Below, one piece after another: positions 989 through 44,121 of a stretch of 64,000 nt of DNA. The DNA is taken from NCBI GenBank assembly GCA_964561995.1, contig CAZLQZ010000002.1, positions 38,442 through 102,441 of the forward strand. The letters are read 5' to 3'. A program made the translations under genes and the position numbers. Under the pieces are notes generated by a model that worked only from the letters and a program-made list of their open reading frames with translations, was not told where the DNA came from and searched no databases. This DNA is from an uncultured Methanosarcinales archaeon. Lineage in GTDB: Archaea; Nanobdellota; Nanobdellia; Woesearchaeales; JABIAG01. Numbering within the stretch: the stretch's first letter is position 1; each line of letters opens with the position of its first letter.

Positions 989-1582
989 TTATTTTTTCAA
1001 AATAACTTCTACTTCATATTTTTTTAAAGGGAGTAGTTTATCTGAAAATTTTACAATTTTTTCTTTTAAATCTTTTTTCTTTTTTTCTTCTATTGTTGGT
1101 TTTCGCTCTATTTTGTGTTGTTTTCCCGAACCTTTTTCGAATTTAAATATTAAACTTCTTAATGGATTAATTCTGTTAACTTTTAATTTAAGCATTTTTG
1201 AAAAAGGCGGAATTCCCTCTCCATCGTAACTTGTACTTCTTTGAACAACAAAACAATGAAATGAAGTTTCATCAAAAAATCTTAAATGATATGGATTCTG
1301 AACAGATAATCCCCACGGTACTTTTATATGAAGTAACCCTTTATTTTTTAAAACTCTGAAAAAATCTCTCAGAATCATTAAATAGTTTGTACTAAAATCT
1401 TCTAGAACATGACTGCAATATATACCATCAATTGTATTATTTTCAAATGGTAATGGTGCCGGAAGTTCATGACATATGTTTGCTCCATTTTCTAAATGTC
1501 TATCAATATTTATCCATTTTTTTTCATTAGTTGATATTTTTATGTCTCTTCCTGAACCAACATTTAACCATATTTGAGTCAT
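989..1582 (-). CDS. putative SAM-dependent methyltransferase
   Basis: Short class I MTase-like protein (LEDFSTNYLMILRDFFRVLKNKGLLHIKVP). It overlaps the next gene by 4 nt, which suggests an operon. Confidence 0.4.
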   Translation of the reverse strand: MTQIWLNVGSGRDIKISTNEKKWINIDRHLENGANICHELPAPLPFENNTIDGIYCSHVLEDFSTNYLMILRDFFRVLKNKGLLHIKVPWGLSVQNPYHLRFFDETSFHCFVVQRSTSYDGEGIPPFSKMLKLKVNRINPLRSLIFKFEKGSGKQHKIERKPTIEEKKKKDLKEKIVKFSDKLLPLKKYEVEVILKK

Positions 1583-2352
1583 AATTTTACCACCATAACA
1601 TGTTTATCTAACAGCGGAATGAATGTTTCAGGTTTATCTTTGAAAAATTCTTCAAAAGCTTTAACAACTCCTTTTCCAACTGGAAAATCATGAGATAAAA
1701 TAACTCCCCCTTTAGACATTCTTGGATAAAAAAATTCAAGGCAGTCTTTTGCAGACCTATAAATATCAACATCAAAATGAACAAATGAAAACTTTTTATT
1801 ATTTATTGGTTTTGAAGTTTCTGGAAAAATTCCTTTATAGAAATAAACATTTTTATATTTTTTCAAGTATTTTTTAACTTCATTAAATGAGGCAGAGAAA
1901 TCGCCCTTTTTGAATTTATGAACTCCATCATATTTGAAATCAATAGAATCTGTTTCAGGTAAACCCTCGAAAGTATCAAATAAATGGAGTATTCTGTTTT
2001 CTTTCACTTTACAGATTACTTTTGCACTACTTCCACGATATACTCCTACTTCCGCAATATCTCCTCTTATTTTTTTGGTTGCTAAAGTAATTGTATATAC
2101 ATTATGTAAATCATTTACATTTAATGTAGTGACTCTTTCTTTCAATGCAATTTCTTCATAAATTTTTGCAAAATTTGGTTTTTGCAATAAGCTTGTAAGT
2201 GTCCATTTGTTATAATTCCATAAAACTTTTTGTATAAATTTTAGAGATTTTTCTTTAATCATAATTCTTAAAAAACAGGACTCTTTTTTAAAGTTTGTGG
2301 TACTATTGTTTGTGGATTTTTGGTTATATAATTTTTCAATTTTAAGATTCAC
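1579..2352 (-). CDS. TylF/MycF-like (macrocin O-methyltransferase family) sugar O-methyltransferase
   Basis: GDIAEVGVYRGSSA, DTFEGLPE and GGVILSHDF motifs resemble the TylF class I O-MT family. Confidence 0.55.
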   Translation of the reverse strand: MNLKIEKLYNQKSTNNSTTNFKKESCFLRIMIKEKSLKFIQKVLWNYNKWTLTSLLQKPNFAKIYEEIALKERVTTLNVNDLHNVYTITLATKKIRGDIAEVGVYRGSSAKVICKVKENRILHLFDTFEGLPETDSIDFKYDGVHKFKKGDFSASFNEVKKYLKKYKNVYFYKGIFPETSKPINNKKFSFVHFDVDIYRSAKDCLEFFYPRMSKGGVILSHDFPVGKGVVKAFEEFFKDKPETFIPLLDKHVMVVKL

Positions 2353-2386
2353 AAGTTTTAAAAACTAGTTAAAGTTTTACAATTTC

Positions 2387-3493
2387 ATGAAAGTAAATCA
2401 AAAATATTTCAGGACAATTTGGGTGAAAGAAGATGACAATAAAATTATTCAAATAATTGACCAAAGAAGTCTTCCTCACGATTTTATAATTGAAGATTTA
2501 ACAAATGTTGATGAAGTTGCAGTTGCAATTAAAGATATGCATGTCAGAGGTGCGGGATTAATTGGGGCTACTGCCGGTTATGGTATGTATGTTGCTTGTT
2601 TAGAAGCTTTAGAAAATGATTTTGAAAATCATATTGTAAAATTAGGTGAAAAATTAAAATCTACTCGGCCAACCGCAGTAAATCTTGCATGGGCAGTTGA
2701 TAGACAATTAAAAGCAATTAGTCATGGTAATTCAATTCAAGAAAAAATAAATATTGCATTTAATACTGCAAAAGATATCGCGGATGAAGATGCAGAGTTT
2801 TGTAGAAGGCTCGGAGAACATGGTTTTAAGGTTATTGAAGAAATAAGTAAAAGAAAAAATGGTGAAGTTGTAAATATTCTTACTCATTGTAATGCTGGAT
2901 GGTTGGCTTTTGTTGATTACGGTTCGGCTACTGCTCCAATTTATGCTGCTTTTGAGAAAGGAATAAAAGTTCACGTATGGGTTGATGAAACTCGTCCAAG
3001 AAATCAAGGTGCAAGACTTACTGCTTGGGAATTAGGACAACATGGAGTTTCCCATCATATTATTGCTGATAATGTAGGTGGACATTTAATGCAACATAAT
3101 TTGGTTGATATGGTGATTGTTGGAACCGATAGAACTACTTATACTGGAGATGTAGCAAATAAAATTGGAACTTATCTTAAAGCTTTAGCTGCTAAAGATA
3201 ATAATGTGCCATTTTATGTAGCTTTACCATCTTCAACTTTTGATTGGAAAATGAAAGATGGTGTTAAGGAAATACCTATTGAAGAACGTAACCAAGATGA
3301 AGTAAAATATATTCAAGGATTACATGATGGTAATATAAAAAAAGTTCTTTTAACTCCTGATAATAGTCCTGCTTCAAATCATGCTTTTGATGTAACTCCA
3401 GCAAGATTAGTAACTGGTTTAATTACTGAAAGAGGAATTTGTGAAGCAAATGAAGAATCAATAAAAGCATTATTTCCTGAAAAAAATGACTGA
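2387..3493 (+). CDS. eIF-2B alpha/beta/delta family isomerase (MtnA / ribose-1,5-bisphosphate isomerase-like)
   Basis: Conserved GAGLIGATAGYGMYVA and C-terminal AFDVTPA motifs of the e2b2/MtnA family. Length 368 aa. Confidence 0.7.
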   Translation: MKVNQKYFRTIWVKEDDNKIIQIIDQRSLPHDFIIEDLTNVDEVAVAIKDMHVRGAGLIGATAGYGMYVACLEALENDFENHIVKLGEKLKSTRPTAVNLAWAVDRQLKAISHGNSIQEKINIAFNTAKDIADEDAEFCRRLGEHGFKVIEEISKRKNGEVVNILTHCNAGWLAFVDYGSATAPIYAAFEKGIKVHVWVDETRPRNQGARLTAWELGQHGVSHHIIADNVGGHLMQHNLVDMVIVGTDRTTYTGDVANKIGTYLKALAAKDNNVPFYVALPSSTFDWKMKDGVKEIPIEERNQDEVKYIQGLHDGNIKKVLLTPDNSPASNHAFDVTPARLVTGLITERGICEANEESIKALFPEKND

Positions 3494-4469
3494 AATATTT
3501 TGTGATCAAATAAAAAAATATTTTAAATTTGTGATTAATTCTAATGAATTAGGTTTAAATGAAATTAAAATAATAGATGTTAAATTTTTAGCAAGAGGTG
3601 CTTCTAATCTCAATTATATTGTAAATGTAGATAATAAAAAATTTGTTTTTAGGATGAATATTTTACAACAGAGTTCATTTAAAAATCAACTAAAAAGAGA
3701 ATTTGATATTTTAAAATATCTTGAAAATGAAAATATCAGTCCTAAAGCTTTCATATTAGATGAATCTAATTCTTTTTTCAAACATGATTTAATTATAATT
3801 GAATATATTGAAGGAAGTAAAATTAAACCAAATTTTGATTCTTTATCTAGAACAGCTAAAACATTAAGAAAGTTACATAAAATGCCAATTAAACAAGAAT
3901 TGAATTTAAAAAAAGGTGGATATCAAAATGATTTAAAAGAAATTGAGGAAGTAATTGTTCAATATCAAAATAAAAACAATTTTAATTTAGAATTTTTAGA
4001 AAAGATTAAACGTTTTTATGAAAAAATAAAACAACAAGTTAATAATTTAAATATTGAATCTTTTTGTATAATTCATAGAGATTTAGTTGGTTCTAACGGA
4101 ATTGATGATGAAAATGTTGTTAAATTAATTGATTGGGAAGTTCAAAAAATTGATGAATGTTTTATGGATTTTGGTGTTTTTTTATCACCTGCTAATACAT
4201 TATGGGATTTTGGCAGGATTTTATCTGAAAAAGAAGAAATGCATTTTTTGAAATCTTATTTTGAGAGAAATCCAAACTCTGAAGAATTGAAAAAAACAAA
4301 ATTAAGAAAAATTTTAGCAAGTATATTTTTGGCAATTTGGATAGAAAATAAATTATTAGATATTCAAAATGATGAAATGCCTAAAGAAATGTATGATGAA
4401 GATGTTATTAATAGATGGACTCGTTCAAAAGATGGAGTTATGGAATATTTAAAAGAAAAATTAAATTAA
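3486..4469 (+). CDS. APH/choline-kinase family small-molecule kinase (candidate LicA-like or MtnK-like)
   Basis: Brenner-type motif IIHRDLVGSNGI followed by a LIDWE motif, as in ChoK/APH kinases. It overlaps the upstream isomerase gene by 8 nt. Confidence 0.5.
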   Translation: MTEIFCDQIKKYFKFVINSNELGLNEIKIIDVKFLARGASNLNYIVNVDNKKFVFRMNILQQSSFKNQLKREFDILKYLENENISPKAFILDESNSFFKHDLIIIEYIEGSKIKPNFDSLSRTAKTLRKLHKMPIKQELNLKKGGYQNDLKEIEEVIVQYQNKNNFNLEFLEKIKRFYEKIKQQVNNLNIESFCIIHRDLVGSNGIDDENVVKLIDWEVQKIDECFMDFGVFLSPANTLWDFGRILSEKEEMHFLKSYFERNPNSEELKKTKLRKILASIFLAIWIENKLLDIQNDEMPKEMYDEDVINRWTRSKDGVMEYLKEKLN

Positions 4470-6331
4470 TATTCTACAGGTTTTTCTTCAACAATCTCTT
4501 TAAGATTTTTGCAGAATTCAATAATGTCTTTTTCTGTTAGAGTTCCAATATTTGCAAAATGTAAAACTTTACCAAGTAATGGTCCTTTTCCAGGATAAAA
4601 AATATAACCTCTTTCTTTTAATTTGTCATGAAATTCTTTAAAAGTATAATTATTTGGTGTAAGAACATTAACCATTAAATTAGACATTTCTTGTTCTTTT
4701 AATTGAAATTTAAAACCCATTTCTTTAAATCTTTTTTTTAATAAATCACCATTATTTTTGTATCTTTTCCATCTATTTTCTAATCCTTCTTTTATTAATT
4801 GATTTAATGCTTCATCAAGCATATAAAACAAAGGAATTTGGGGTGTAAATGGTGTTTGATTCTCTTTATCACTATATTTAATATATTTAAAAAAATCAAG
4901 ATAATATGATCTTGGTTTTACATCTTTACTTTTTTCAATAATTGATTTTTTATAACATATTATTCCTAAAACTGGTAATCCTCCAAGACATTTGTTAGTA
5001 TTTGTTAAACAATAATCAACATTGTCTTTAACCATGTCTAATGGTTCTCCACCTAATGCACTTATTGCGTCTACAATAAAACTTTTATCATATTTTTTGC
5101 AAAGTTCTCCTGTTTCACGAACGGGATTAAGCATTCCTGTTGATGTTTCCATTAAAACCATTGAAACTGCTTCAATTGTTGGGTCTTCTTTTAATCTTGC
5201 TTCAATTTCATCTAATTTAGGAAATTCGCCCCATTCATAATGTAAGTAAGACGTAGTTAATCCATGCAATTCACAAATTTCATTTATTCTTTCACCAAAT
5301 GCTCCATTTGCAACAACTAATAATTTTTTATCATCATGCAATATTGAAGATAATAGTGTCTCTGTTGCAGATGTTCCAGAACCACCAATAACTACTGCCG
5401 AATAATTTTTTTCATTTCCTCTAAAAACTTTAATTAATTTTTCTCTTACATTTTTGAATAAGTTTGAAAATTCAGGTTCTCTATGACCTATTTCGCTATA
5501 AACTGTTGCTTTTTTAACTTCTTCTGAAACATTAACTGGACCTGCAACAAACATTCTGTACCCTTGTTGTTCAATATTTTCATCTGTTTTATTATTTAAT
5601 AAATTTAGTTCTTTAAGTTTTTTTATGTCTTGTTCATCATCAACATCAAAACAAAATTTTAAACTTTTTGGAATTGTTAAATTGTAAAATCCTTGATCGT
5701 CAATCATATTTATTAAAGTTAAAGTATACCAACCTTTTAGTGCTGCAGGATTGCTTAAGTTGTCCCTTAATTTTTTGGCTTCTTTTCCTTTAATTTTCAT
5801 AATGCCCATATAGGTGTGAAGTTTTTTGTTTTTATAATCTGGATTTAGCGGTTGTCCTTTTATTGGAATTGTCATTTTAATAATCAAGGAAGTGTCATCT
5901 ACTAAAATAATCTCGTCTTCAAATTTAGGTTTAAATTCAACTTCTTTAGTTACTAAAATATTTTCTTTTTTAGAATTCATTAGTTCTTGTATTAATTCTT
6001 CATCATAAACTAAATCTCCATCACAAATCAATATTTCTTCATCTTCTTTTAATTCTGAGTTTAATTTTTCTAATCCTAAATATACACTGTATGCATTACC
6101 CAATTCTTCATATTTATTGTTAATAATTATATTATTGTGAATTTTTTTAATTAATTCATTTTTATAGCCAGCAATAACAAAAATATTTTCATCTTTCAAA
6201 CCCGCTTTTTTAAGTGCATCAATTTGTCTTTCTAAAATTGTTTTAGAACCTACTTTTAAAAGAGTTTTTGGAACATCAAGTACATTTTTCAATTCATAAT
6301 CACGACCTGCTGCTAAAATAATTGCTTTCAT
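4466..6331 (-). CDS. bifunctional fusion: N-terminal LicC-like nucleotidyl(cytidylyl)transferase plus C-terminal class V aminotransferase
   Basis: N-terminus MKAIILAAGRDYELKNVLDVPKTLLKVG (MobA/LicC-like NTP-transferase). The C-terminal ~360 aa have a class V aminotransferase fold (GGSGTSATETLL, TGMLNPV). Length 621 aa. Confidence 0.6.
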   Translation of the reverse strand: MKAIILAAGRDYELKNVLDVPKTLLKVGSKTILERQIDALKKAGLKDENIFVIAGYKNELIKKIHNNIIINNKYEELGNAYSVYLGLEKLNSELKEDEEILICDGDLVYDEELIQELMNSKKENILVTKEVEFKPKFEDEIILVDDTSLIIKMTIPIKGQPLNPDYKNKKLHTYMGIMKIKGKEAKKLRDNLSNPAALKGWYTLTLINMIDDQGFYNLTIPKSLKFCFDVDDEQDIKKLKELNLLNNKTDENIEQQGYRMFVAGPVNVSEEVKKATVYSEIGHREPEFSNLFKNVREKLIKVFRGNEKNYSAVVIGGSGTSATETLLSSILHDDKKLLVVANGAFGERINEICELHGLTTSYLHYEWGEFPKLDEIEARLKEDPTIEAVSMVLMETSTGMLNPVRETGELCKKYDKSFIVDAISALGGEPLDMVKDNVDYCLTNTNKCLGGLPVLGIICYKKSIIEKSKDVKPRSYYLDFFKYIKYSDKENQTPFTPQIPLFYMLDEALNQLIKEGLENRWKRYKNNGDLLKKRFKEMGFKFQLKEQEMSNLMVNVLTPNNYTFKEFHDKLKERGYIFYPGKGPLLGKVLHFANIGTLTEKDIIEFCKNLKEIVEEKPVEY

Positions 6332-7071
6332 TTTGCTTCCTCATTAATACTTTTTAATCTTTCACAATCTTCCGGATTATCAATATCAAAACAGAATTTT
6401 AAACCATCTGGAATTTCTACACTATAAAATTCTCCGTTGTTTACAATATCTACTAATGGAATTGTATACCATCCTTTTTGCATTTCTGAAGTTGATAAAT
6501 CATTTTTCAATTTGATTGCATTATTTTTAGAAATTCCTAAAATACCAATATAAGTATAGAGTTGTTTTTCTTGCCATATTCCTTCTAAATTTATTCCCTT
6601 AGTTGGTATTGTCATTTTAATTATTTTTTTGTTTTCATCAATAATCATTGTTTCATCTTTTAACTTTGAAGAAAAATCAATTTTTTTAGTAACTATTATG
6701 TCTTTTTTATTTGAATTCATAATCTGTTTAATTAATTCATCATCATAAACCAAGTCACCATCAAAAATTAAAACGCTTTCATCTTTATTCATTTTGTCAG
6801 TTATGAAATTAAGTGCAAGGTAAACGCTGTATGCATTATCAAATTCCATAAATTTTTCATTATAAATTATCTTATCATGAACAGCTTCAATTAATTCTCG
6901 TTTATAACCACTAATTACATAAATCTCTTCTTTTTTTAATCCTGCATTTTTTAATGCTTGAATCTGTTTTTCAAGAATTGTTGTTTCGCCTATTTTTAAT
7001 AATGTTTTAGGAACATCAATTATTCCTTGTAATCTTCTATTATATCCTGCTGCTAAAATTACTGCTTTCAT
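6328..7071 (-). CDS. LicC-like nucleotidyltransferase (paralog of the N-terminal domain of the preceding fusion)
   Basis: MKAVILAAGYNRRLQGIIDVPKTLLKIG is about 55% identical by eye to the fusion N-terminus. It overlaps the fusion gene by 4 nt. Confidence 0.6.
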   Translation of the reverse strand: MKAVILAAGYNRRLQGIIDVPKTLLKIGETTILEKQIQALKNAGLKKEEIYVISGYKRELIEAVHDKIIYNEKFMEFDNAYSVYLALNFITDKMNKDESVLIFDGDLVYDDELIKQIMNSNKKDIIVTKKIDFSSKLKDETMIIDENKKIIKMTIPTKGINLEGIWQEKQLYTYIGILGISKNNAIKLKNDLSTSEMQKGWYTIPLVDIVNNGEFYSVEIPDGLKFCFDIDNPEDCERLKSINEEAK

Positions 7072-7164: not shown

Positions 7165-9078
7165 ATGTTTATTTCAATAATATTATTTTTTGTATATTGT
7201 TTTGGGTTTGGACATAGTCTTTCTCTTTTTATTAAAGAATGGAATGCTTCTTTTTTTGAAAAAGTTATTATGAAAATTGGTTTTGGATTAGCACTTATAA
7301 CACCAGTTGCAATAATGATTAATCTCTTTAAGTTACCTGTGTTATGGTGGATATTTTTAATATTATCTTTAATTGGACCAATTTATTCATTTAGATCTGG
7401 AATTAAAATACCTAAAATTAAGTTTAAAAAATCTGATATGTATTTAATTTTTGTATTAATTATTTTTGTTTTTTCATTATATATGTATATGGGTGGAGCA
7501 TTATCTCATCCTTGGTTAAGTGATGGAGATTCATGGCAACATGCAACTTCAATTAAATATATTGCTTCTGAAAAAACTGTTTTTGCTCCAGAAGGACAGG
7601 AGACTGTATTTAGATATTTAGATACTTATCCTCCTGGATATGGTGCTGTACTTGCAATTCTTTATCAGACTGTTGGTAGTTTAATTCCAACAATCAAAGT
7701 ATTTAATGCATTAATAATTTCTTTGGGTTATTTATTTTTCTTTTTTTTCTTTAAATCTTTTATGAAGAGTAATAAAAAAGCTTTAATGGCCACATTTATT
7801 TTAGCAATGGTTCCTTCTTTTGTAAGTAGATTTATTTGGGCTCATTCATTAGTCATCACCTTACTTCCTGTATTTTTATATGCATTGGTTAAAATTGAAG
7901 ATAATAAACGATGGGCAATTATTGCAGGAATTGTTTTTGGATGTACCACTTTAATACAACCTACTCAGCCAGTTAAGTTTTTTGTGATGTTTTTAATTTT
8001 CATTTCTATAAAATTATTTAAAGATAAAAATCTTTTAAAACCATATCTTATTGTTTTACTTTTTACCATTATTTTTTCTCTTTTTTGGTGGGGACCTATG
8101 GTGGTCAAATATCAAGATGACTTCTTTTTTGAGTTTATGGGTGGACAACAATCTTTTTACAAAGAGGATGGCACTAGAGGGAGTAAACCTTATATTGGTG
8201 GGTTAGGAACTGCAACTAGAATGTATTATTTCGATGATTTTTTTACCGCAAAAAGTCAAAATCAGATAAACAATCCAGTAGGTTGGGGTTCTATAGTTAG
8301 TATTTTATTTGCTTTTGGTTTGATTTCTTTATTTTTTAATTATAAAAAATTAAAACCTAAAAAAGCAAATTGGAGATTGATTTCTTTATTTTGGTTTGTT
8401 TTTACTTTTGCAGGACTTTATGGTGGTACTGTTTTCCCTATTGCTTTGGTTTCATTTAGATTTTGGACTTTAGTTAGTATTCCCATGGCTTTATTAGCTG
8501 TTGAAGGAATGTGGTTTTTGATTAATTTGGGTAAAAAAATTAATATTCCAGCATTTATTATTTTAATAATTGTATTATTAGGAGTTTTTGTTACTTCAGG
8601 TGTTGCAAAATTTGAATTAAACACTATGCAATGGGCACCAGAGGGAGCCCATATGCAATTTGGTCAGAGTGAAGCTTATTCTTGGATGTCTGAACTTCCA
8701 AAAGAAACTAAATTTTTCTATCCTTGTCATTGGGAAAAATTTGGTGATTTTACTGTTATTGCTTATGACTTATATGCTTGTCCTTGGTGTGATGAGGAAA
8801 TCAAATTTAGGGAAAAATTATTTAATGCAAATTATAGTATAGACCCTGTAGATTTAAGAAATTGGTTGGTTAAAAATAATTATGAATATTTTATGATTGA
8901 GGGTAATTGTATTGATGCAATGTCTCGACATGTTTTAAATGCTTATAATATCACAGATCCAGTATTAAGAAAGAAAGCAGGTCTTGATGCCACAAATCAG
9001 TTTTTAACAAATGTTTCTGCATCAGGATTGTTTACTCTATCTCATCAAACACAAGGCAGTTGGATATGGCGAATATAG
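7165..9078 (+). CDS. large polytopic membrane protein, GT-C-fold glycosyltransferase-like
   Basis: About 13 predicted TM helices followed by a Cys/Trp-rich soluble C-terminal domain. It lies inside the glycosylation cluster. Confidence 0.35.
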   Translation: MFISIILFFVYCFGFGHSLSLFIKEWNASFFEKVIMKIGFGLALITPVAIMINLFKLPVLWWIFLILSLIGPIYSFRSGIKIPKIKFKKSDMYLIFVLIIFVFSLYMYMGGALSHPWLSDGDSWQHATSIKYIASEKTVFAPEGQETVFRYLDTYPPGYGAVLAILYQTVGSLIPTIKVFNALIISLGYLFFFFFFKSFMKSNKKALMATFILAMVPSFVSRFIWAHSLVITLLPVFLYALVKIEDNKRWAIIAGIVFGCTTLIQPTQPVKFFVMFLIFISIKLFKDKNLLKPYLIVLLFTIIFSLFWWGPMVVKYQDDFFFEFMGGQQSFYKEDGTRGSKPYIGGLGTATRMYYFDDFFTAKSQNQINNPVGWGSIVSILFAFGLISLFFNYKKLKPKKANWRLISLFWFVFTFAGLYGGTVFPIALVSFRFWTLVSIPMALLAVEGMWFLINLGKKINIPAFIILIIVLLGVFVTSGVAKFELNTMQWAPEGAHMQFGQSEAYSWMSELPKETKFFYPCHWEKFGDFTVIAYDLYACPWCDEEIKFREKLFNANYSIDPVDLRNWLVKNNYEYFMIEGNCIDAMSRHVLNAYNITDPVLRKKAGLDATNQFLTNVSASGLFTLSHQTQGSWIWRI

Positions 9079-10445
9079 TTGATAAGTTTAAAAGAATGGA
9101 CAAATTTGTATTTATACTTTTTATTTTTTTTATTTTTTTTACTTTATTTTTTTTAACTCCTTGGATTCATGCAAATGATGGAGCAGGTTATTATTCTTAT
9201 GTTAGGTCTGCTTTTGTGGATAAAGATTTAAATTTACAAAATGAAAAGGAATTTTTTGAACAAAAGTTTCAAGTTTCAGCAATTCAACGAGATAATTTCA
9301 CAGGAGTTTATTATTCTCAATATCCTATTGGAACTCCTTTATTATGGAGTCCTTTTTATTTAATGGGTCATTTATTTGCAAATAGTTTTGGATATGATAC
9401 TGATGGATATTCATTTCCTTATATTTATATGATTAATTTAGGTTCTGCAATACTTGGATTTTTAGCTCTACTTATGATTTATAATTTTTGTAGAAAGTTT
9501 TTTTCAAAGAAAGTTTGTTTTCTTTCAATTATAACTTTTTGGCTTTCATCATCTATTTTTTATTATATGTATTTTGAAGCATCTTTAAGTCATTGTGCAT
9601 CTTTGTTTGCAGTTACGTCTTTTATTTATTATTGGTATAATACAAAAAATAATAGAACGTATTTACAATGGTTTTTTTTGGGATTGTTATCTTCTTTAAT
9701 GTTAATTGTTAGATATCAAAATGTTTTTTTTATGGTTTTACCTTTGATTTTTTCTTTATTATATTATTTAACAGTAATTAGAAAAAAAGATTGGAAGAAA
9801 ATGTTAAATTTATTTTTTAAAAATGTTTTATACCTAATGGTATTCCTAATTGGATTGATCCCACAACTGCTAGTTTTAAAATATCAACATGGCTATGTTT
9901 TTTCTGCAGAAAGTCATTATCATAATTCTTTTACTTTAATTAAAGCTTCTTATAATTGGATTAATGTTTTATTTTCAACAAATCATGGTTTATTTTTATG
10001 GACTCCCGTAATATTTATTTCAGTATTTGGTTTAATTTATGGCATTAAAATTAACAAAAATAAAGAAACAAAAAAATTAATTTTTGCTTTTTTGGTTGCA
10101 TTTTCATTACAATTATTATTAATATCAACAATAACTGCTTGGAATGGTGCTCAATCTTATGGTCATAGAATGTTTATTAATTGCTCTCTTATTTTTGTTT
10201 TTGGTTTTGCTATATTGATTAATAAGTTACAAAAACACATTAATTTTTCATATTTAATTGTAATTTGTATGATTTTTATAGGTTGGAATTTTAATTTGAT
10301 GATTCAGTATGGTTTAAGGTTAATTCCCGCTGAAGGCTCAATTAATTTTTTAGAAGTAATTAAAAATACTTTTTTTGTAATCCCTAACAAATTAATCGGT
10401 ATTCTTAAGAAATTCTTATTCTCTAGAAGTTCTTTTGTTTCATAG
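9060..10445 (+). CDS. polytopic membrane protein, GT-C / PMT/ArnT-like candidate
   Basis: 461 aa, all-TM architecture. It overlaps the upstream gene. Confidence 0.35.
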   Translation: MDMANIVDKFKRMDKFVFILFIFFIFFTLFFLTPWIHANDGAGYYSYVRSAFVDKDLNLQNEKEFFEQKFQVSAIQRDNFTGVYYSQYPIGTPLLWSPFYLMGHLFANSFGYDTDGYSFPYIYMINLGSAILGFLALLMIYNFCRKFFSKKVCFLSIITFWLSSSIFYYMYFEASLSHCASLFAVTSFIYYWYNTKNNRTYLQWFFLGLLSSLMLIVRYQNVFFMVLPLIFSLLYYLTVIRKKDWKKMLNLFFKNVLYLMVFLIGLIPQLLVLKYQHGYVFSAESHYHNSFTLIKASYNWINVLFSTNHGLFLWTPVIFISVFGLIYGIKINKNKETKKLIFAFLVAFSLQLLLISTITAWNGAQSYGHRMFINCSLIFVFGFAILINKLQKHINFSYLIVICMIFIGWNFNLMIQYGLRLIPAEGSINFLEVIKNTFFVIPNKLIGILKKFLFSRSSFVS

Positions 10446-16728: not shown

Positions 16729-17511
16729 ATGAAATTTAAAGAAATTCTTCATGGAACAGCAGCGTCCAGGGATGCTGAACAAGGATATTCTGGTTTGAAA
16801 TATCAAATTTATGAATTTCTTGCAGCTGTACTTGTAAAAATTCTAATGTATACTCCAATTACTGCAAACCAAATTACTTTATTGGGAATTGTTTTTGTTT
16901 ATGTTGCTGCTATATTATTTGGTTATGGAACTTTATATCTTGGAATATTAGCAGTTGGTTTTATTTATCTTGGAGAGTTAATGGATGCAACTGATGGAAC
17001 TTTGGCAAGATCTAAAAAAGCTTGTTCTAAATTACAATCTAATATTTTAGGAAATTTATATCATTCTTCAGCTTATTCAATACTTTTTTTGGGAATTGGA
17101 TTTGGTGTTTTTGTAGGTACTGGAAATTGTATTTTTATTCTATTGGGTGGAATTTCTGCTTTTTTTCAACAAACAATGGGTTTGATTCGTTTCTTAGGAA
17201 GTCAAGTAATGTTTAAGAATAGAGAATTGTTAAAAGAAAAAGGAAAAGAAAATTTATTAGATGAAGCAGATGAAAAAAAATTATTTAAAGTTGGTAAAAA
17301 ATCATTCAAGAATTTCTTTATTGAATTGATTGGTGCACCAATTAAACATTTAAGATTAATAATTATTGTAGTATTAATTTTGAATTATACAATATATCCA
17401 ATGGCGTTTTCAATATTTACTATATTTTATGCGATTTTCATTCCAATTAAAACGCTTGGTTTCTTGCATAGTATTTATTATTCTTTCAAAAGAATAGAAA
17501 CAAAGAATTAA
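16729..17511 (+). CDS. CDP-alcohol phosphatidyltransferase family protein
   Basis: DATDGTLAR matches the DxxDGxxAR core of the CDP-alcohol phosphotransferase signature. Polytopic membrane protein. Confidence 0.55.
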   Translation: MKFKEILHGTAASRDAEQGYSGLKYQIYEFLAAVLVKILMYTPITANQITLLGIVFVYVAAILFGYGTLYLGILAVGFIYLGELMDATDGTLARSKKACSKLQSNILGNLYHSSAYSILFLGIGFGVFVGTGNCIFILLGGISAFFQQTMGLIRFLGSQVMFKNRELLKEKGKENLLDEADEKKLFKVGKKSFKNFFIELIGAPIKHLRLIIIVVLILNYTIYPMAFSIFTIFYAIFIPIKTLGFLHSIYYSFKRIETKN

Positions 17512-17532: not shown

Positions 17533-19029
17533 TTGTTAATTATGAGCTATCTTAAAAAGGGGTTATTAGGTGTTATTTTAATATTTACTGCAACTACTTT
17601 AGGCAATATAGCAGGTTATTTTGTCAGATTAATTTTGGCTAGAAATATTACTCTTGAAGAAATTGGATTATTTTATTCCGTTTTCACATTAATTACTTTT
17701 GTACTTCTTTTTGTTAATATTGGTACAACTCCTGCTTTAATTAAATTCATTTCACAATTTAAAGCAGAAAAGAATTATGGCAAATTGTGGTATTCTATTA
17801 AGTTTGTTACAATTATTAAATTATTTTTAGCTGTTATTGCATCATTATTAATTTATTTTTCATCTAATTTTTTAGCTTTATATTATTTTAAGGATCCTGC
17901 TGCTCAATTAGTATTGCAAATTTTTTCAATTGTTTTGTTTTGTATTGTTGTTGTGGGATTAATGGGAGCTATATTTCAAGGTTTTCAAAGTATGATGACT
18001 TTATCTTTGATTCTTTTTAGTGAGAATCTTTTATTTTTATTATCAACAATTGTGTTAATTTTTTATGGTTTTGAAAAAAGTGCTTTGTTACCTTCTTATG
18101 GTTTTTTAGCAGGTTGGGGATTCACTATTTTGTTATTTTTGCCTTTTTTATTTCGTTATAAGAAATTTTTAGAAAAGGATATAAAAATCAATCATTTATC
18201 TAAAAAAATAATGAATTTTGCTTTAGCATCATTTTTAATTTCATTAGGTAATTTAATTATTGGATATTTAGATACTTTAATTTTAACTTTTTTTAGGCCA
18301 TTAAGTGAAGTTGGAGTTTACAATGTTGTTTTACCTACTGTTATAATAATTGGTTTTTTAAGTCGGTCTATTTCTCAAGTTTTTTTCCCAATGGTTTCAG
18401 AATTGTGGACTAAAGGATTAAAAAACAAATTAATTGAAGGTACTAATTTACTTCATAAATATTCAATGTTAACGGTAATACCTTTGTCAATGACTTTATT
18501 TGTTTTTCCTGAAATTTTATTGAATTTTTTGTTTGGTGCCGAATATGTAATTGGTAGTATGGTAATGAGAATACTTTCAGTAGGAATTATTTTTTTCACA
18601 ATTGGAACGGTGGATCAATCAATACTTTCAGGCATTGGAAAACCAAAAGTTGTTACAAAAATTCTTTTATTAGCAGCATTATTCAATGTGGTAACAAATT
18701 TTATATTTATTCCATATTATGGAATGTTGGCCGCGTCTATAACTACTACATTAAGTTACTTATTAATCTTTATTTTAACAACCTTAGCTCTTAAAAAACA
18801 TATTCAATTGAATTTTAAATATTTAGATTGGTTAAAATATTTTTCATCAGCGGTTGTATTTGTATTATCTGTTTATTTATTAAAAAACATTTTAAAATTC
18901 AATGCTATTTTAGAATTCTTTATTTGTTTAGTATTCGCTTCTTTAGTTTATTTAATTGTTTGTTATTTAGTTGGTTTATTAAATATTAAAGAAGTTAAAT
19001 TTTTCATCAAATCAGTATTGAAGAGATAA
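17533..19029 (+). CDS. Wzx/AglR-type oligosaccharide flippase (polysaccharide biosynthesis protein family)
   Basis: 498 aa, about 12-14 TM helices, MOP-superfamily-like layout, within the glycosylation cluster. Confidence 0.6.
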   Translation: MLIMSYLKKGLLGVILIFTATTLGNIAGYFVRLILARNITLEEIGLFYSVFTLITFVLLFVNIGTTPALIKFISQFKAEKNYGKLWYSIKFVTIIKLFLAVIASLLIYFSSNFLALYYFKDPAAQLVLQIFSIVLFCIVVVGLMGAIFQGFQSMMTLSLILFSENLLFLLSTIVLIFYGFEKSALLPSYGFLAGWGFTILLFLPFLFRYKKFLEKDIKINHLSKKIMNFALASFLISLGNLIIGYLDTLILTFFRPLSEVGVYNVVLPTVIIIGFLSRSISQVFFPMVSELWTKGLKNKLIEGTNLLHKYSMLTVIPLSMTLFVFPEILLNFLFGAEYVIGSMVMRILSVGIIFFTIGTVDQSILSGIGKPKVVTKILLLAALFNVVTNFIFIPYYGMLAASITTTLSYLLIFILTTLALKKHIQLNFKYLDWLKYFSSAVVFVLSVYLLKNILKFNAILEFFICLVFASLVYLIVCYLVGLLNIKEVKFFIKSVLKR

Positions 19030-41179: not shown

Positions 41180-41245
41180 AAACTAGTTTTACCTGTAAAA
41201 CTACAGGTGTGGTACTCAATTATTGTGTGCGCTACAGGTGGTGTT
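41180..41245 (+). promoter_or_regulatory. candidate operator/promoter of the nrd operon: palindrome CCTGTAAAACTACAGG plus a second CTACAGGTG copy, and a GGTGG SD
   Basis: Perfect inverted repeat at 41192-41207. CTACAGGTG repeated 32 bp downstream (41233-41241). Confidence 0.35.
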
Positions 41246-41696
41246 TAAAATGAAATGTCCTTTTTGTAATTCCAATGAATTAAAAGTTGTTGAAACTAGG
41301 GAATCGGTTGATAATCTTACGAGAAGAAGAAAAGAATGTTTTTCTTGTAATAAAAGATTTACTACATATGAAAAAATTGATTTGGGTAATATTTTTGTAG
41401 TTAAAAAAGATGGAACAAAACAAGAATTCAAAGAACAAAAAATCAAAGGGAGTATAATTAGAGCGTATGATAAAAGAAACTTTCCTGAAGATAAAGTTGA
41501 AAAGATTTCAAGAGATATAATTTCTAAGTTATACTCATTGGGTCAAAAAGAAGTTCTTTCAACTCAGATCGGAAGGATGATTTTAAGTAAGTTAAAAACT
41601 TTAGATAAACTTGCATATTTACGATTTAGTTATGTCTTTAACGATTTTCAAGACATTGAGAATATAAAAGAGGTTATTAAAAAAATAGAAAAATGA
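41223..41696 (+). CDS. nrdR: NrdR transcriptional repressor (Zn-ribbon plus ATP-cone)
   Basis: MKCPFCNSNELKVVETRE...RRRKECFSCNKRFTTYEKID is the canonical NrdR N-terminus. 157 aa. Confidence 0.8.
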   Translation: MCALQVVFKMKCPFCNSNELKVVETRESVDNLTRRRKECFSCNKRFTTYEKIDLGNIFVVKKDGTKQEFKEQKIKGSIIRAYDKRNFPEDKVEKISRDIISKLYSLGQKEVLSTQIGRMILSKLKTLDKLAYLRFSYVFNDFQDIENIKEVIKKIEK

Positions 41697-43531: not shown

Positions 43532-44004
43532 TTGGTGCATTTCAAAAATTAACTTTGCAAGATTATCCTGGTAGGGTTGCTTGTATAATTTTCACGAGAG
43601 GTTGTAATTTAAGGTGTAGTTATTGTCATAATCCTGATTTATTAAAAGAAGGTAAAAATATTTCTGAAATTGAAATTTTAAATTTTCTTGAAAACAGAAA
43701 AAATTTGCTTGATGGGGTTGTAGTTACTGGTGGTGAGCCAACAATTCATGGTGACTTGCCTAATTTATTGTTTAAAATTAAAAAACTGGGTTACTCAATT
43801 AAATTATATACTAATGGTACTAGACCTTTGATGCTAAAAAAGTTAACTGAAAAAAATTTGGTTGATGTAGTTGCAATGGATTATGAATTAAGTGATGAGA
43901 AATCTAAAAAAATTGTAAAAGAAAGTGGTGTTGAATATGAATTAAGGGTTCATTCTGATGAAAATGTAAAAGAAAAGAATGCAGTTTACTATGATATAAA
44001 ATAA
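43528..44004 (+). CDS. nrdG: anaerobic RNR activating enzyme (radical SAM)
   Basis: CNLRCSYCHN CxxxCxxC cluster motif. 158 aa. Translationally coupled to nrdD. Confidence 0.8.
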   Translation: MIGAFQKLTLQDYPGRVACIIFTRGCNLRCSYCHNPDLLKEGKNISEIEILNFLENRKNLLDGVVVTGGEPTIHGDLPNLLFKIKKLGYSIKLYTNGTRPLMLKKLTEKNLVDVVAMDYELSDEKSKKIVKESGVEYELRVHSDENVKEKNAVYYDIK

Positions 44005-44007
44005 ATA

Positions 44008-44121
44008 TGGGGATGTGAGGATTTGAACCCCAATCCGTCGGTATCTTCAAAAATCATTGACTTTCGTCTCATATTTCCATTGTTGGAGCCGACTATTCTA
44101 GCCAGATTATACTACATCCCC
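44008..44121 (-). tRNA. tRNA-Trp (anticodon CCA) with a ~40-nt intron 3' of position 37
   Basis: Reverse complement reads GGGGATG...CATCCCC-A (acceptor), a GG-containing D-loop, anticodon stem GTCGG/CCGAC with loop CUCCAA(intron)A, and T-arm TGGGG-TTCAAAT-CCTCA. The D-stem is weak and AT-rich, hence moderate confidence. Confidence 0.65.

What the first reader, a model, noticed from the sequence alone, without database searches (positions are those of the whole stretch)
4466..7071. Tandem LicC-like nucleotidyltransferase paralogs, one fused to a class V aminotransferase
The first ~60 residues of the two proteins are about 55% identical (MKAIILAAGRDYELKNVLDVPKTLLKVG versus MKAVILAAGYNRRLQGIIDVPKTLLKIG), and the genes overlap by 4 nt. 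One copy carries a ~360-aa C-terminal class V aminotransferase. As I recall it, this nucleotidyltransferase-aminotransferase fusion is the hallmark of PntC-AEPT enzymes, where 2-aminoethylphosphonate transaminase is fused to phosphonate cytidylyltransferase in nucleotide-activated phosphonate pathways. Here it sits in an archaeal glycan cluster.
Basis: partly seen in the sequence, partly recalled or inferred. Interest (0 to 1): 0.55.

Follow-up and report, generated by a model that had tools for sequence, protein, structure and literature searches.

The report
AEPT-like aminotransferase with dead-looking fused nucleotidyltransferase
A tiny symbiotic-type (DPANN) archaeon carries, inside its surface-sugar gene cluster, an enzyme pair that looks like the bacterial machinery for attaching phosphonates to cell surfaces, but the rest of the phosphonate pathway is missing nearby, a key substrate-binding residue is changed, and the fused copy of the activating enzyme has lost catalytic residues while a free copy next door keeps them.

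Summary
ORF 6328-7071(-) is a 247-aa LicC/PntC-like nucleotidyltransferase (NT). ORF 4466-6331(-) is a 621-aa NT fused to a class V aminotransferase (AT). The genes overlap by ATGA, and the NT parts are 51% identical over 243 aa.

The PntC-AEPT reading is only partly supported. The best sequence and fold match is the T. denticola PntC-AEPT crystal structure. Against that:
- No Ppm or Ppd lies in the window, its flanks, or 1.1 Mb of related loci.
- The AT scores below NCBI's AEPT cut-offs.
- The AT sits in a 100%-supported archaeal clade outside the 99%-supported clade of all characterised AEPTs.
- His replaces the conserved C-terminal Arg.

Two further findings:
- The two NT copies are not sister sequences, so this is not a recent tandem duplication.
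- The fused NT has lost the signature Arg (AAGRDYEL versus AAGxNxRL in 35 relatives) and an invariant Lys. Only one other locus (L006) has a degenerate fused NT, and it is the only other locus with a free NT paralog.

Most likely this is a DPANN head-group activation module. The AT makes an amino-phosph(on)ate, the free NT cytidylylates it, and a CDP-alcohol phosphotransferase transfers it to a glycan or lipid. The substrate is unresolved.

The parts
6328..7071 (-). Free-standing LicC/PntC/IPCT-like nucleotidyltransferase (247 aa) with an intact signature AAGYNRRL...DVPK (Asn11, Arg13, Lys22). Proposed active cytidylyltransferase.
   Evidence: Pfam NTP_transf_3. Best PDB hits are LicC 1jyk (E 2.6e-10) and 6pd1 (5e-6). 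Signature retained. Sister to the free NT of L038 with 100% bootstrap.
6328..6331 (-). ATGA start/stop overlap between the two genes, with a GAGGA Shine-Dalgarno-like element upstream. Suggests translational coupling.
   Evidence: Sequence read directly.
5597..6331 (-). N-terminal NT domain of the fusion (aa 1-245). Confidently folded but degenerate: 4 of 37 clade-invariant positions are changed (N11D, R13E, K138E, S181K).
   Evidence: pLDDT 82-96 across the domain. Groups with the fused NTs of P0007/L037 at 78% bootstrap, not with the adjacent free NT.
6290..6313 (-). Degenerate pyrophosphate-loop motif AAGRDYEL (aa 7-14). Glu13 occupies the position of the essential Arg15 of Tde-PntC.
   Evidence: HMMER alignment to 6pd1. 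DNA read directly. 35 relatives keep xGxNxRL. Role of Arg15 from PMC6697681.
5561..5596 (-). Inter-domain linker (aa 246-257), predicted disordered.
   Evidence: pLDDT below 50 for residues 248-256.
4469..5560 (-). C-terminal class V, AEPT-like PLP aminotransferase domain (aa 258-621) of the archaeal 'His-type' clade. PLP Lys447 and Asp421 are retained, and the GHREPEF motif is invariant.
   Evidence: Pfam Aminotran_5 and NCBIfam TIGR03301 at 331 bits, below the 360.8 cut-off. Invariant columns. Foldseek versus 1m32: TM 0.93, 1.9 A. Clade support 100%.
4559..4561 (-). Codon for His591, at the position of the conserved Arg (FRIGNIG) of the four reconstructed reference structures (1m32, 9kk8, Tde1415/6pd1, 2dr1).
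   Evidence: Alignment of 120 homologues plus 4 PDB sequences.
4991..4993 (-). Codon for Lys447, the predicted Schiff-base lysine (NTNKC motif).
   Evidence: Aligned with SANKC of 1m32 and 9kk8; 9kka is the K193M mutant at this site.
3486..4469 (+). Orphan APH-fold small-molecule kinase. Its stop codon overlaps the fusion gene's stop convergently, and its start overlaps the mtnA-like gene by 8 nt. Possible supplier of a phosphorylated precursor.
   Evidence: Pfam APH at 54.6 bits. No close PDB relative. A convergent APH gene is also directly downstream of fusion P0004. Junction read directly.
2387..3493 (+). MtnA-type aldose-ketose isomerase (methylthioribose-1-phosphate isomerase family) embedded in the glycan cluster. 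Recurrent immediate neighbour of the AT in relatives.
   Evidence: NCBIfam PRK05720 at 453 bits (cut-off 271) and TIGR00512 at 404 (279). PDB MtnA structures 240-251 bits versus R15P isomerase 107. Catalytic CNAG Cys and GTDR Asp conserved. Adjacent to the AT in L006, L007, L008, L034, L036, L038/39, P0011 and P0014.
16729..17511 (+). Candidate CDP-alcohol phosphotransferase with an atypical signature (DATDGTLAR...GNLYHSSAY). Tentative transferase for the activated head group.
   Evidence: Pfam CDP-OH_P_transf at 26 bits, E 1.2e-5. 25-29% identical to the CDP-OH_PT genes adjacent to the NT/AT pair in L004/5/6. Signature analysis.
17533..19029 (+). Wzx/MurJ-type polysaccharide flippase, a recurrent neighbour of the module in relatives.
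   Evidence: Pfam Polysacc_synt. Recurrence.
7165..10445 (+). Two large polytopic membrane proteins (637 aa with no family; 461 aa with a weak PMT_2/GT-C-like hit), divergently transcribed from the NT genes. The same neighbours occur in L038/39, P0010, P0011 and P0014.

Best explanation
The two genes are the core of a head-group activation module that is conserved in DPANN (Woesearchaeota/Nanoarchaeota-type) archaeal surface-glycan clusters.

Proposed mechanism:
1. The AEPT-like PLP domain aminates a small carbonyl compound carrying a phosphoryl or phosphonyl group.
2. A LicC/PntC/IPCT-like nucleotidyltransferase condenses the resulting amino-phosph(on)ate with CTP to give a CMP/CDP-linked head group.
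3. A CDP-alcohol phosphotransferase transfers it to a lipid-linked glycan or lipid. A Wzx flippase and GT-C-type membrane enzymes handle the later steps.

In this window the NT domain fused to the aminotransferase is a folded but catalytically degenerate relic (Arg13 to Glu, Lys138 to Glu, Asn11 to Asp). The translationally coupled free NT upstream supplies the cytidylyltransferase activity.

The aminotransferase is not an orthologue of characterised AEPT. It belongs to a sister clade in which the anchoring Arg is His. Its substrate is therefore probably not phosphonoacetaldehyde made by Ppm/Ppd. More likely it is a phosphate-ester carbonyl, for which the neighbouring MtnA-type isomerase product (a 5-substituted ribulose-1-phosphate) is the leading candidate.

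Shown: the domain architecture, the residue changes, the phylogeny, the absence of ppm/ppd nearby, and the conserved neighbours.
Inferred: inactivity of the fused NT, CTP as the nucleotide, the direction of the pathway, and the identity of the substrate and acceptor.
For: Architecture and fold:
- best match is 6pd1/6pd2 PntC-AEPT across both domains.

Module conservation:
- NT and AT are always adjacent or fused in about 30 archaeal loci.
- CDP-OH_P_transf is the immediate neighbour in at least 13 non-redundant loci, and Wzx is commonly next to it.

Degenerate fused NT:
- The signature Arg/Asn are lost only in the window and L006 fused NTs, against 35 intact relatives.
- 4 and 9 of 37 invariant positions are changed, against at most 1 in all others.
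- Both loci, and none of 11 intact fusions with known context, have a free NT paralog next door (Fisher p = 1/78).
- Rice et al. report that R15A cuts Tde-PntC activity to below 10%.
- The fused NT is still confidently folded (pLDDT 82-96) and is not evolving abnormally fast (NT:AT identity ratio 0.81, within the 0.76-0.97 range of all 14 fusions; only P0008 at 0.78 and P0009 at 0.76 are lower).

Not classical AEPT:
- TIGR03301 scores 331 against a 360.8 cut-off, while Tde AEPT, P0120 and P0113 pass.
- The His-type clade has 100% and the characterised AEPT clade 99% bootstrap support.
- Arg to His at the FRIGNIG site across the clade.
- 32% identity to 1m32, below the 35% working criterion in PMC10590968.
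- No PEP mutase or TPP decarboxylase in 1.117 Mb of window plus loci (and the Pfam).

MtnA link:
- A bona fide MtnA-type isomerase with catalytic residues lies directly next to the AT in 9 non-redundant loci, in both convergent and co-directional (L038: NT-AT-MtnA-TylF) arrangements, and is embedded within glycan genes.
Against: - No biochemical data exist for any member of this clade.
- The AT's nearest characterised relatives are still AEPTs.
- The CDP-alcohol phosphotransferase partnership also occurs in true phosphonolipid clusters (PMC8942020).
- One relative (L004) has a PhnD-like 'Phosphonate-bd' ABC transporter four genes away.
- Ppm/Ppd could be encoded elsewhere in the genome; only about 79 kb of it was visible.
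- The role of the Arg (R340 in S. typhimurium AEPT) as the phosphonate/carboxylate anchor is from my memory of Chen et al. 2002 and of AGT Arg360. I could not read the paper.
- The fused NT keeps Lys22, the DGD motif and an Arg at position 10, so residual or altered activity is not excluded.
- The degeneracy/paralog association rests on two loci.
- MtnA adjacency could be inherited synteny among related genomes (MtnA is 70-75% identical between loci).
- The window's own CDP-OH_PT candidate is 9.6 kb away and has an incomplete signature.
Confidence: 0.55

Rival explanations
1. Classical phosphonate tailoring. The fusion is a true PntC-AEPT that converts phosphonoacetaldehyde to AEP and then CMP-AEP, with ppm and ppd encoded elsewhere in the genome. 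Alternatively AEP or its precursor is taken from a host or the environment. The product decorates the N-glycan or S-layer.
For: - Best sequence and fold match is PntC-AEPT 6pd1/6pd2.
- The top NCBIfam models are all AEPT models.
- JGI annotates relatives as AEP-pyruvate transaminase.
- CDP-alcohol phosphotransferase and two PntC copies also occur in known AEP clusters.
- L004 has a PhnD-like transporter near a second NT.
Against: - No Ppm/Ppd in the window plus flanks or around any of about 30 archaeal relatives, nor near the one Gln-type bacterial fusion whose context was fetched (P0092). In known producers two-thirds of ppm genes have their nearest NT gene within five genes.
- Below the curated cut-offs, whereas Tde-like sequences pass.
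- Separate clade.
- Arg to His at the substrate-anchor site, and the RFT Arg to Pro.
- The Tde amine-contact residues Glu104/Glu196 are Asp and Trp/Thr.
- If AEP were imported, the invariably co-encoded aminotransferase would be unnecessary.
- No literature links DPANN archaea to phosphonates.
Confidence: 0.22
2. Both NT copies are active and have diverged in specificity. The fused copy has a remodelled pyrophosphate loop and uses a different nucleotide or a different phosphorylated substrate, for example one made by the adjacent APH-fold kinase. The locus would then activate two different head groups.
For: - The fused NT is well folded and under constraint.
- It keeps Lys22, the DGD motif and the C-terminal FDVD acidic motif, and has an Arg at position 10, where GlmU has Lys (the GlmU comparison is from memory).
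- A kinase gene abuts the fusion here and in P0004.
- Known AEP clusters can hold two PntCs.
Against: - Charge reversals at two invariant basic residues (R13E, K138E) in a site that binds polyphosphate are hard to reconcile with NTP use.
- L006's fused NT is more eroded still: a deletion in the loop and loss of an acidic metal-ligand position.
- The changes occur only where a canonical paralog is available, which is the pattern expected for relaxed constraint.
Confidence: 0.15
3. The aminotransferase is an ordinary serine/alanine-glyoxylate-type (SGAT/AGAT) enzyme of amino-acid metabolism. Its fusion or adjacency to an NT would then be incidental.
For: NCBI names several relatives 'alanine--glyoxylate aminotransferase family protein'. 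P. horikoshii PH1308 (2dr1) scores almost as well as 1m32 by phmmer.
Against: - NT adjacency or fusion is conserved across about 30 loci.
- AGAT/SGAT structures score 115-131 bits against 171-181 for AEPTs.
- 2dr1 scores only 207 bits on TIGR03301 against 331 for the window.
- The carboxylate-anchoring Arg that these enzymes need is absent.
- The gene is embedded in a glycan cluster.
Confidence: 0.03

Closest known systems
Tde1415 PntC-AEPT of Treponema denticola (PDB 6PD1/6PD2; Rice et al. 2019, PMC6697681)
   Same: Same two-domain order (LicC-like NT, short linker, class V AT) and similar length (621 vs 624 aa). Alignable end to end, and the best hit by both sequence and predicted fold. Both occur in cell-surface glycan contexts.
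   Different: - Only about 26% identity overall and 32% in the AT.
- Tde1415 sits beside ppm and ppd; this gene does not.
- Tde NT has GGLGSR with the essential Arg15; here it is AAGRDYE.
- Tde Glu104/Glu196 are Asp and Trp/Thr here.
- Tde AT passes TIGR03301 and has the FRIANIG Arg; this one fails the cut-off and has His.
- This locus additionally carries a free NT paralog.
PhnW/AEPT of Salmonella and Vibrio (PDB 1M32, 9KK8; TIGR02326, PRK13479)
   Same: Same fold (TM 0.93, 1.9 A). The PLP Lys and Asp are conserved, and the YPGK and ETS/TTG motifs are shared.
   Different: - 31-32% identity.
- Below all three curated cut-offs.
- Lacks the FRIGNIG Arg and the RFT Arg.
- Has a GHRExEF motif that PhnW lacks.
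- No phnX/phnY/phnA or pepM/ppd neighbours.
LicC CTP:phosphocholine cytidylyltransferase of S. pneumoniae (PDB 1JYK/1JYL)
   Same: Best PDB sequence match for the free NT. Shares the N(x)YS(L/V)YL segment, and Asp rather than Glu at the Tde-Glu104 position. The logic (kinase, then NT, then transferase) resembles the lic pathway.
   Different: The match covers only the first 94 residues (E 2.6e-10). There is no LicA-type choline kinase family hit, no LicB and no LicD. An aminotransferase partner has no place in the lic pathway.
Archaeal IPCT/DIPPS (CTP:inositol-1-phosphate cytidylyltransferase plus CDP-alcohol phosphotransferase; PDB 2XME, 4MND; NF041135)
   Same: The NT is a detectable homologue (E about 1e-14). 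It pairs with a CDP-alcohol phosphotransferase, as in this module's relatives.
   Different: Scores are far below the family cut-off (54 vs 580 bits). There is no inositol-phosphate synthase. An aminotransferase is the obligatory partner instead.
Uncharacterised bacterial 'Gln-type' NT-AT fusions (e.g. P0092, P0067)
   Same: Same fusion architecture. Also lack the Arg (Gln instead), also fall below the AEPT cut-offs, share IGHRExEF / NGxFGER / QTPxTP motifs, and sit next to a CDP-alcohol phosphotransferase with the same Asp-to-His signature variant. No ppm within 10 kb of the one example whose context was fetched (P0092).
   Different: 31-37% identity. Bacterial. Intact NT signature. No MtnA neighbour in the one context examined.

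Membership tests
PntC-AEPT fusion (Tde1415 type) | Single polypeptide with an N-terminal LicC/MobA-like NT and a C-terminal class V aminotransferase | tested here: met
   Pfam. Full-length HMMER alignment to 6pd1. Foldseek top hit 6pd2 across about 640 columns.
PntC-AEPT fusion (Tde1415 type) | NT signature GXG(T/S)R-X4-8-PK with catalytic Arg15 and Lys25 | tested here: not met
   The fused domain reads AAGRDYEL...DVPK: the Arg is replaced by Glu, the Lys is kept. The free paralog keeps the Arg and Lys (AAGYNRRL...DVPK).
PntC-AEPT fusion (Tde1415 type) | Glu104 and Glu196 contacting the AEP amine in a sterically restricted pocket | tested here: not met
   Asp104 (DGD), and Trp/Thr at the MEYEH position, in both copies and the whole archaeal clade. 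Weak criterion: Ari-PntC is also LicC-like yet AEP-specific.
AEP transaminase (AEPT/PhnW/AepZ) | Score at or above NCBIfam curated cut-offs (TIGR03301 360.8; PRK13479 296; TIGR02326 400.8) | tested here: not met
   331.4, 259.4 and 242.8 bits. The Tde AEPT domain, P0120 and P0113 pass TIGR03301 and PRK13479.
AEP transaminase (AEPT/PhnW/AepZ) | Groups phylogenetically with characterised AEPTs | tested here: not met
   NJ tree, 59 sequences, 200 bootstraps: archaeal His-type clade 100%; clade of 1m32, 9kk8, Tde1415 and relatives 99%.
AEP transaminase (AEPT/PhnW/AepZ) | Conserved C-terminal Arg (FRIGNIG; Arg340 of the Salmonella enzyme) that anchors the acidic group of the substrate | tested here: not met
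   His591 in the window. His (rarely Asn/Gln) across P0001-P0066. Arg in the four reconstructed reference structures (1m32, 9kk8, Tde1415/6pd1, 2dr1) and in the Tde-like homologues. The functional role of the Arg is recalled, not read.
AEP transaminase (AEPT/PhnW/AepZ) | More than 35% identity to a validated PhnW, plus clustering with pepM/ppd or phnX/phnYA (criterion of PMC10590968) | tested here: not met
   32% to 1m32 and 31% to 9kk8. None of those genes is nearby.
Phosphonate biosynthetic gene cluster | PEP mutase (PF13714 with EDKxxxxxNS) and phosphonopyruvate decarboxylase in the neighbourhood | tested here: not met
   No PF13714 or TPP-enzyme hit in any ORF of at least 110 aa in the window or in called genes of the flanks. 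Zero motif hits and zero PrpB tblastn hits in 1.117 Mb. The IlvI search found a TPP enzyme in L014, showing that search can detect a hit.
Phosphonate biosynthetic gene cluster | Ppm/Ppd anywhere in the same genome | not testable with these tools
   Only the window plus about 15 kb of flank could be read. The source genome is not among the GTDB representatives returned.
LicC phosphocholine pathway | LicC orthology with LicA choline kinase, LicB permease and LicD transferase partners | tested here: not met
   Partial N-terminal similarity only. The adjacent kinase hits generic APH, not choline kinase. No LicD or LicB was found in the window scans.
CDP-alcohol phosphotransferase (window 16729-17511) | Signature D-x2-D-G-x2-A-R-x8-G-x3-D-x3-D | tested here: inconclusive
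   The first half is present (DATDGTLAR). The second half reads G-NLY-H-SSA-Y. The Pfam hit is 26 bits against a cut-off of 22.
MtnA (methylthioribose-1-phosphate isomerase; window 2387-3493) | Above the curated cut-offs and with the catalytic Cys and Asp | tested here: met
   PRK05720 at 453 (cut-off 271) and TIGR00512 at 404 (279). CNAG and GTDR motifs aligned to 1t9k, 6a34 and 2yrf.

The most novel reading that the evidence does not exclude
The His-type AEPT-like aminotransferase, with its NT and CDP-alcohol phosphotransferase partners, constitutes a Ppm-independent pathway. A ketose-1-phosphate made by the embedded MtnA-type isomerase would be aminated at C2, cytidylylated, and transferred as a phospho-amino-pentitol head group onto DPANN surface glycans or lipids. 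The precursor would be 5-methylthio- or 5-deoxy-ribulose-1-phosphate, derived from the SAM by-products of the cluster's many methyltransferases and B12-radical SAM enzymes. That would be a previously unknown class of CDP-activated head group and a new fate for SAM by-products. The window would also capture an intermediate state of gene fission or fusion in which the fused NT has become a pseudo-enzyme domain.
Probability: 0.15. Interest if true: 0.85.

Novelty: new variant of a known kind. Interest (0 to 1): 0.55.

Why it matters
DPANN archaea depend on their cell surface to attach to hosts, yet almost nothing is known about the chemistry of that surface. This module is widespread in their glycan clusters, and automatic pipelines label it "2-aminoethylphosphonate transaminase".

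- If that label is right, these would be the first phosphonoglycan pathways in DPANN, and ppm/ppd would have to be found elsewhere in the genome.
- If it is wrong, as the missing Arg, the separate clade and the consistent absence of ppm/ppd suggest, then a sizeable family of AEPT look-alikes (archaeal His-type and bacterial Gln-type) makes an unknown CDP-activated amino head group. Metagenomic surveys that use AEPT homology would then be overcounting phosphonate potential.

The locus is also a clean natural example of a fused catalytic domain losing its catalytic residues only where a free paralog can compensate.

Tried and rejected
1. Looked for Ppm/Ppd by four routes and found nothing in the window or any archaeal locus:
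   - Pfam scans of every window ORF of at least 110 aa.
   - Precomputed Pfam on called genes of the flanking and related contigs.
   - Regex for the Ppm motif ED[KQR]x5N[ST].
   - tblastn with E. coli PrpB and IlvI.
   The regex and PrpB searches had no true Ppm as a positive control. The IlvI search did detect a TPP enzyme in bacterial L014.

2. Tried to reach the rest of the genome. The look-up of encoding contigs only extends 10 kb past window genes, and the GTDB scan did not return the source genome. Genome-wide absence of ppm is therefore untested.

3. Considered the neighbouring APH-fold kinase as LicA or MtnK. It has no choline-kinase or MtnK family hit and no PDB relative, and it recurs in only one other locus (P0004). 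It is left as a possible but unproven pathway member.

4. Rejected on scores, the TIGR03301 calibration and conserved NT linkage.

5. Considered phosphonate salvage via the PhnD-like transporter of L004. It is present in one locus only, and it would make the universally co-encoded aminotransferase redundant.

6. Followed the recurrent Inositol_P family hit. It turned out to be a separate IMPase-NT/HAD-NT module 3-5 kb away, not part of the pair.

7. Tried to read the primary AEPT structure paper (PMID 12403617) and to find the 9KK8/9KKA paper for phosphonate-binding residues. Neither is held, so the Arg's role rests on memory.

8. Tested whether the degenerate NT domains evolve faster than intact ones. 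They are at the low end of the range but are not outliers, so accelerated decay is not claimed.

Full report
**1. Observation**

The window (about 26% G+C) encodes two ORFs on the minus strand: 6328..7071 (247 aa) and 4466..6331 (621 aa). They overlap by ATGA, with a GAGGA element upstream.
- Pfam finds a MobA/LicC-type NTP_transf_3 domain at residues 3-126 of both proteins, and Aminotran_5 at residues 274-556 of the longer one.
- The NT regions are 51% identical over 243 residues (E 2e-86). The first 60 residues are 67% identical.
- The surroundings are an archaeal glycan cluster: AglB/STT3, a Wzx flippase, GT2/GT4 genes, many methyltransferases, and GT-C-like membrane proteins. It extends about 7 kb to the left of the window, with LPG_synthase_TM, a B12-radical SAM gene, a GT4 and an epimerase.
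- Relatives come from Woesearchaeota/Nanoarchaeota-type MAGs. A tRNA with an intron fits an archaeon.

**2. How far the PntC-AEPT reading holds**

For it:
- The fusion aligns end to end with T. denticola Tde1415 (6pd1, E 8.6e-59).
- An AlphaFold model (pLDDT 91.7) finds 6pd2/6pd1 as its best PDB matches over both domains. The AT domain superposes on AEPT 1m32 at TM 0.93.
- The best NCBIfam models are all AEPT models (TIGR03301, 331 bits). The next unrelated family scores 140 bits.

Against it, the defining features of the family fail one after another:
- All three AEPT models score below their curated cut-offs (331/360.8, 259/296, 243/400.8). In a calibration, the Tde1415 AEPT domain, a Tde-like fusion (P0120) and P0113 pass (367, 369, 437). 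Archaeal relatives (293-308), a bacterial fusion clade (288-318) and P. horikoshii PH1308 (207) fail.
- In an NJ tree of 59 AT sequences, the archaeal clade containing the window has 100% bootstrap support. The clade holding every characterised AEPT (1m32, 9kk8, Tde1415) has 99%.
- At the conserved C-terminal motif FR(I/V)(G/A)N(I/M)G, all four reconstructed reference structures (1m32, 9kk8, Tde1415/6pd1, 2dr1) and the Tde-like homologues have Arg. The window has His591, the archaeal clade has His (rarely Asn or Gln), and a bacterial NT-AT fusion clade has Gln. From memory of the Salmonella AEPT and human AGT literature, this Arg anchors the acidic group of the substrate. I could not retrieve the paper.
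- The Arg of the RFT motif is Pro in the archaeal clade, and an invariant GHRExEF motif appears that PhnW lacks.
- Identity to validated PhnW enzymes is 31-32%, below the 35% working threshold used in PMC10590968.

**3. Ppm and Ppd**

- No PEP_mutase or TPP-enzyme family was found in any window ORF of at least 110 aa.
- None was found in the called genes about 10 kb to the left and 4.5 kb to the right.
- None was found around relatives P0014, P0003, P0010, P0092, P0007, P0002, P0004, P0011 and P0008.
- The Ppm signature EDKxxxxxNS (PMC6697681) has zero matches in 1.117 Mb of window plus 111 loci.
- tblastn with E. coli PrpB finds nothing. IlvI finds a TPP enzyme only in one bacterial locus.
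- Genome-wide absence could not be tested.

**4. Comparative anatomy of the module**

Genome and metagenome scans gave about 30 archaeal-clade loci with three architectures:
- Separate adjacent genes [NT][AT]. This is the commonest form and includes the window's closest relatives L038/L039, whose AT is 69% identical.
- A single fused gene [NT-AT].
- [NT][NT-AT], found only in the window and in L006 (archaeon BMS3Abin17).

Recurrent neighbours:
- A CDP-alcohol phosphotransferase is the immediate neighbour in at least 13 non-redundant loci.
- Wzx flippases, B12-binding radical SAM genes and an MtnA-type isomerase also recur.

The isomerase is a genuine MtnA-family member:
- It scores above the curated cut-offs.
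- It scores 240-251 bits to MtnA structures, against 107 to ribose-1,5-bisphosphate isomerase.
- Its catalytic Cys and Asp are conserved.
- It lies directly beside the AT in nine non-redundant loci, either convergently or co-directionally (L038: NT-AT-MtnA-TylF), and is embedded among glycan genes rather than at a cluster edge.

The CDP-alcohol phosphotransferases vary:
- Those next to fusions carry an Asp-to-His variant of the fourth signature Asp, in archaea and in bacterial L031.
- Those next to separate pairs are canonical.
- The window's only candidate (16729-17511) is 9.6 kb away and keeps only the first half of the signature.

**5. The two NT copies**

Rice et al. define the signature GXG(T/S)R-X4-8-PK and show that Arg15, Lys25 and Lys153 substitutions reduce Tde-PntC activity to below 10%.
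- In this clade 35 NT sequences keep xGxNxRL...PK.
- The only exceptions are the fused NT of the window (AAGRDYEL: Asn to Asp, Arg to Glu) and the fused NT of L006 (AG--KKDL, with a deletion).
- Of 37 positions invariant in the other 27 unique NTs, the window's fused domain has changed 4 (N11D, R13E, K138E, S181K). L006's has changed 9. All other full-length NTs have changed at most 1.
- These two loci are exactly the two that carry a free, intact NT paralog next door. None of 11 intact fusions with known context has one (Fisher p = 1/78).
- The degenerate domain is still confidently folded. Its divergence relative to the AT domain (ratio 0.81) lies within the 0.76-0.97 range of all 14 fusions, near the low end. 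It is retained, not decaying.

The NT tree shows that the copies are not recent duplicates:
- The window's free NT is sister to L038's free NT (100% bootstrap).
- The window's fused NT groups with the fused NTs of P0007/L037 (78%).
- L006's free NT groups with the fused NTs of L004/P0002 (100%).
- The window's AT is sister to the free AT of L038 (72%).

Redundancy therefore arose at least twice, by old duplication, by recombination between fused-type and split-type loci, or as an intermediate in gene fission. Each time, the fused copy lost the catalytic motif.

**6. Mechanism proposed**

- The AT makes an amino-phosph(on)ate.
- The free NT (6328-7071) converts it to a CMP/CDP conjugate.
- A CDP-alcohol phosphotransferase installs it on a glycan or lipid.
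- The fused NT is a structural or binding relic.

The substrate is the open point. I put about 0.2 on classical AEP, with ppm/ppd elsewhere. I put somewhat more on a phosphate-ester carbonyl, with the MtnA product as the best specific candidate. Three things point that way: the remodelled anchor residues, the LicC/IPCT-like rather than Tde-like NT pocket, and the MtnA linkage. None is decisive.

**7. Novelty**

- No paper in the library connects DPANN lineages with phosphonates or describes this module.
- The window's proteins are unnamed in public sources. Relatives are auto-annotated as AEP transaminase or AGAT-family.
- I classify the finding as a new variant of a known kind. It is a PntC-AEPT-like module that fails the membership tests for AEPT, and it has a pseudo-enzyme NT domain compensated by a paralog.

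Noticed in passing
window 1579-3493: An MtnA-type methylthioribose-1-phosphate isomerase gene sits inside the glycan cluster beside a TylF-family O-methyltransferase. The same MtnA-TylF pairing recurs in L006 and L038/39. This is an odd location for a methionine-salvage gene.
   Followed up: partly
window 3486-4469: An orphan APH-fold kinase with no PDB relative. Its start overlaps mtnA by 8 nt, and its stop codon overlaps the stop of the convergent fusion gene, leaving no room for a terminator. A similar convergent APH gene follows fusion P0004.
   Followed up: partly
L008 14840-16363; L041 7438-8997; L068 15238-16806; L044 13567-15085: Nanoarchaeota relatives carry a second module 3-5 kb downstream of the NT/AT pair. 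It is an inositol-monophosphatase-family or HAD phosphatase domain fused to (or, in L044, split from) another NTP_transf_3 nucleotidyltransferase.
   Followed up: partly
L004 16648-19236: A PhnD-like 'Phosphonate-bd' substrate-binding protein with ABC ATPase and permease lies next to a distant NT-only gene and two sulfatase/LtaS-like genes. It is the only phosphonate-flavoured neighbour seen in any locus.
   Followed up: partly
L004 9178-9906, L005 2786-3535, L006 9170-9895, L033 11837-12559, L035 4098-4829, L031 12517-13329: CDP-alcohol phosphotransferases adjacent to NT-AT fusions, in both archaea and a bacterium, share a variant signature in which the fourth conserved Asp is His (GxxxDxxxH). 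Those next to split NT/AT pairs are canonical.
   Followed up: partly
proteins P0067-P0095 (e.g. L031/L032 10001-11935): A bacterial clade of NT-AT fusions has Gln at the conserved Arg site, also falls below the AEPT cut-offs, and has no ppm within 10 kb in the one context examined. These may be misannotated as AEP transaminases.
   Followed up: partly
window left flank, L002 12497-13891; also L006 21338-22581, L009 5925-6727, L068 11940-13589: B12-binding radical SAM genes recur within or directly beside the module across relatives. Their role is unknown; it may be methylation of the head group or of a sugar.
   Followed up: no
window 44008-44121 (-): A 114-nt tRNA, presumably intron-containing, was detected by Rfam (41 bits) but missed by ARAGORN.
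   Followed up: no
window 41223-44004: An NrdR-like regulator, an anaerobic ribonucleotide reductase NrdD and its radical SAM activase form an apparent operon. A bacterial-type NrdR in a DPANN-type archaeon is worth a look.
   Followed up: no
PDB 9os7: The Mycoplasma penetrans MetRS N-terminal ancillary domains are the next-best full-length structural match after PntC-AEPT. This suggests another NT-AT-like fusion that has been recruited as a non-catalytic appendage.
   Followed up: no
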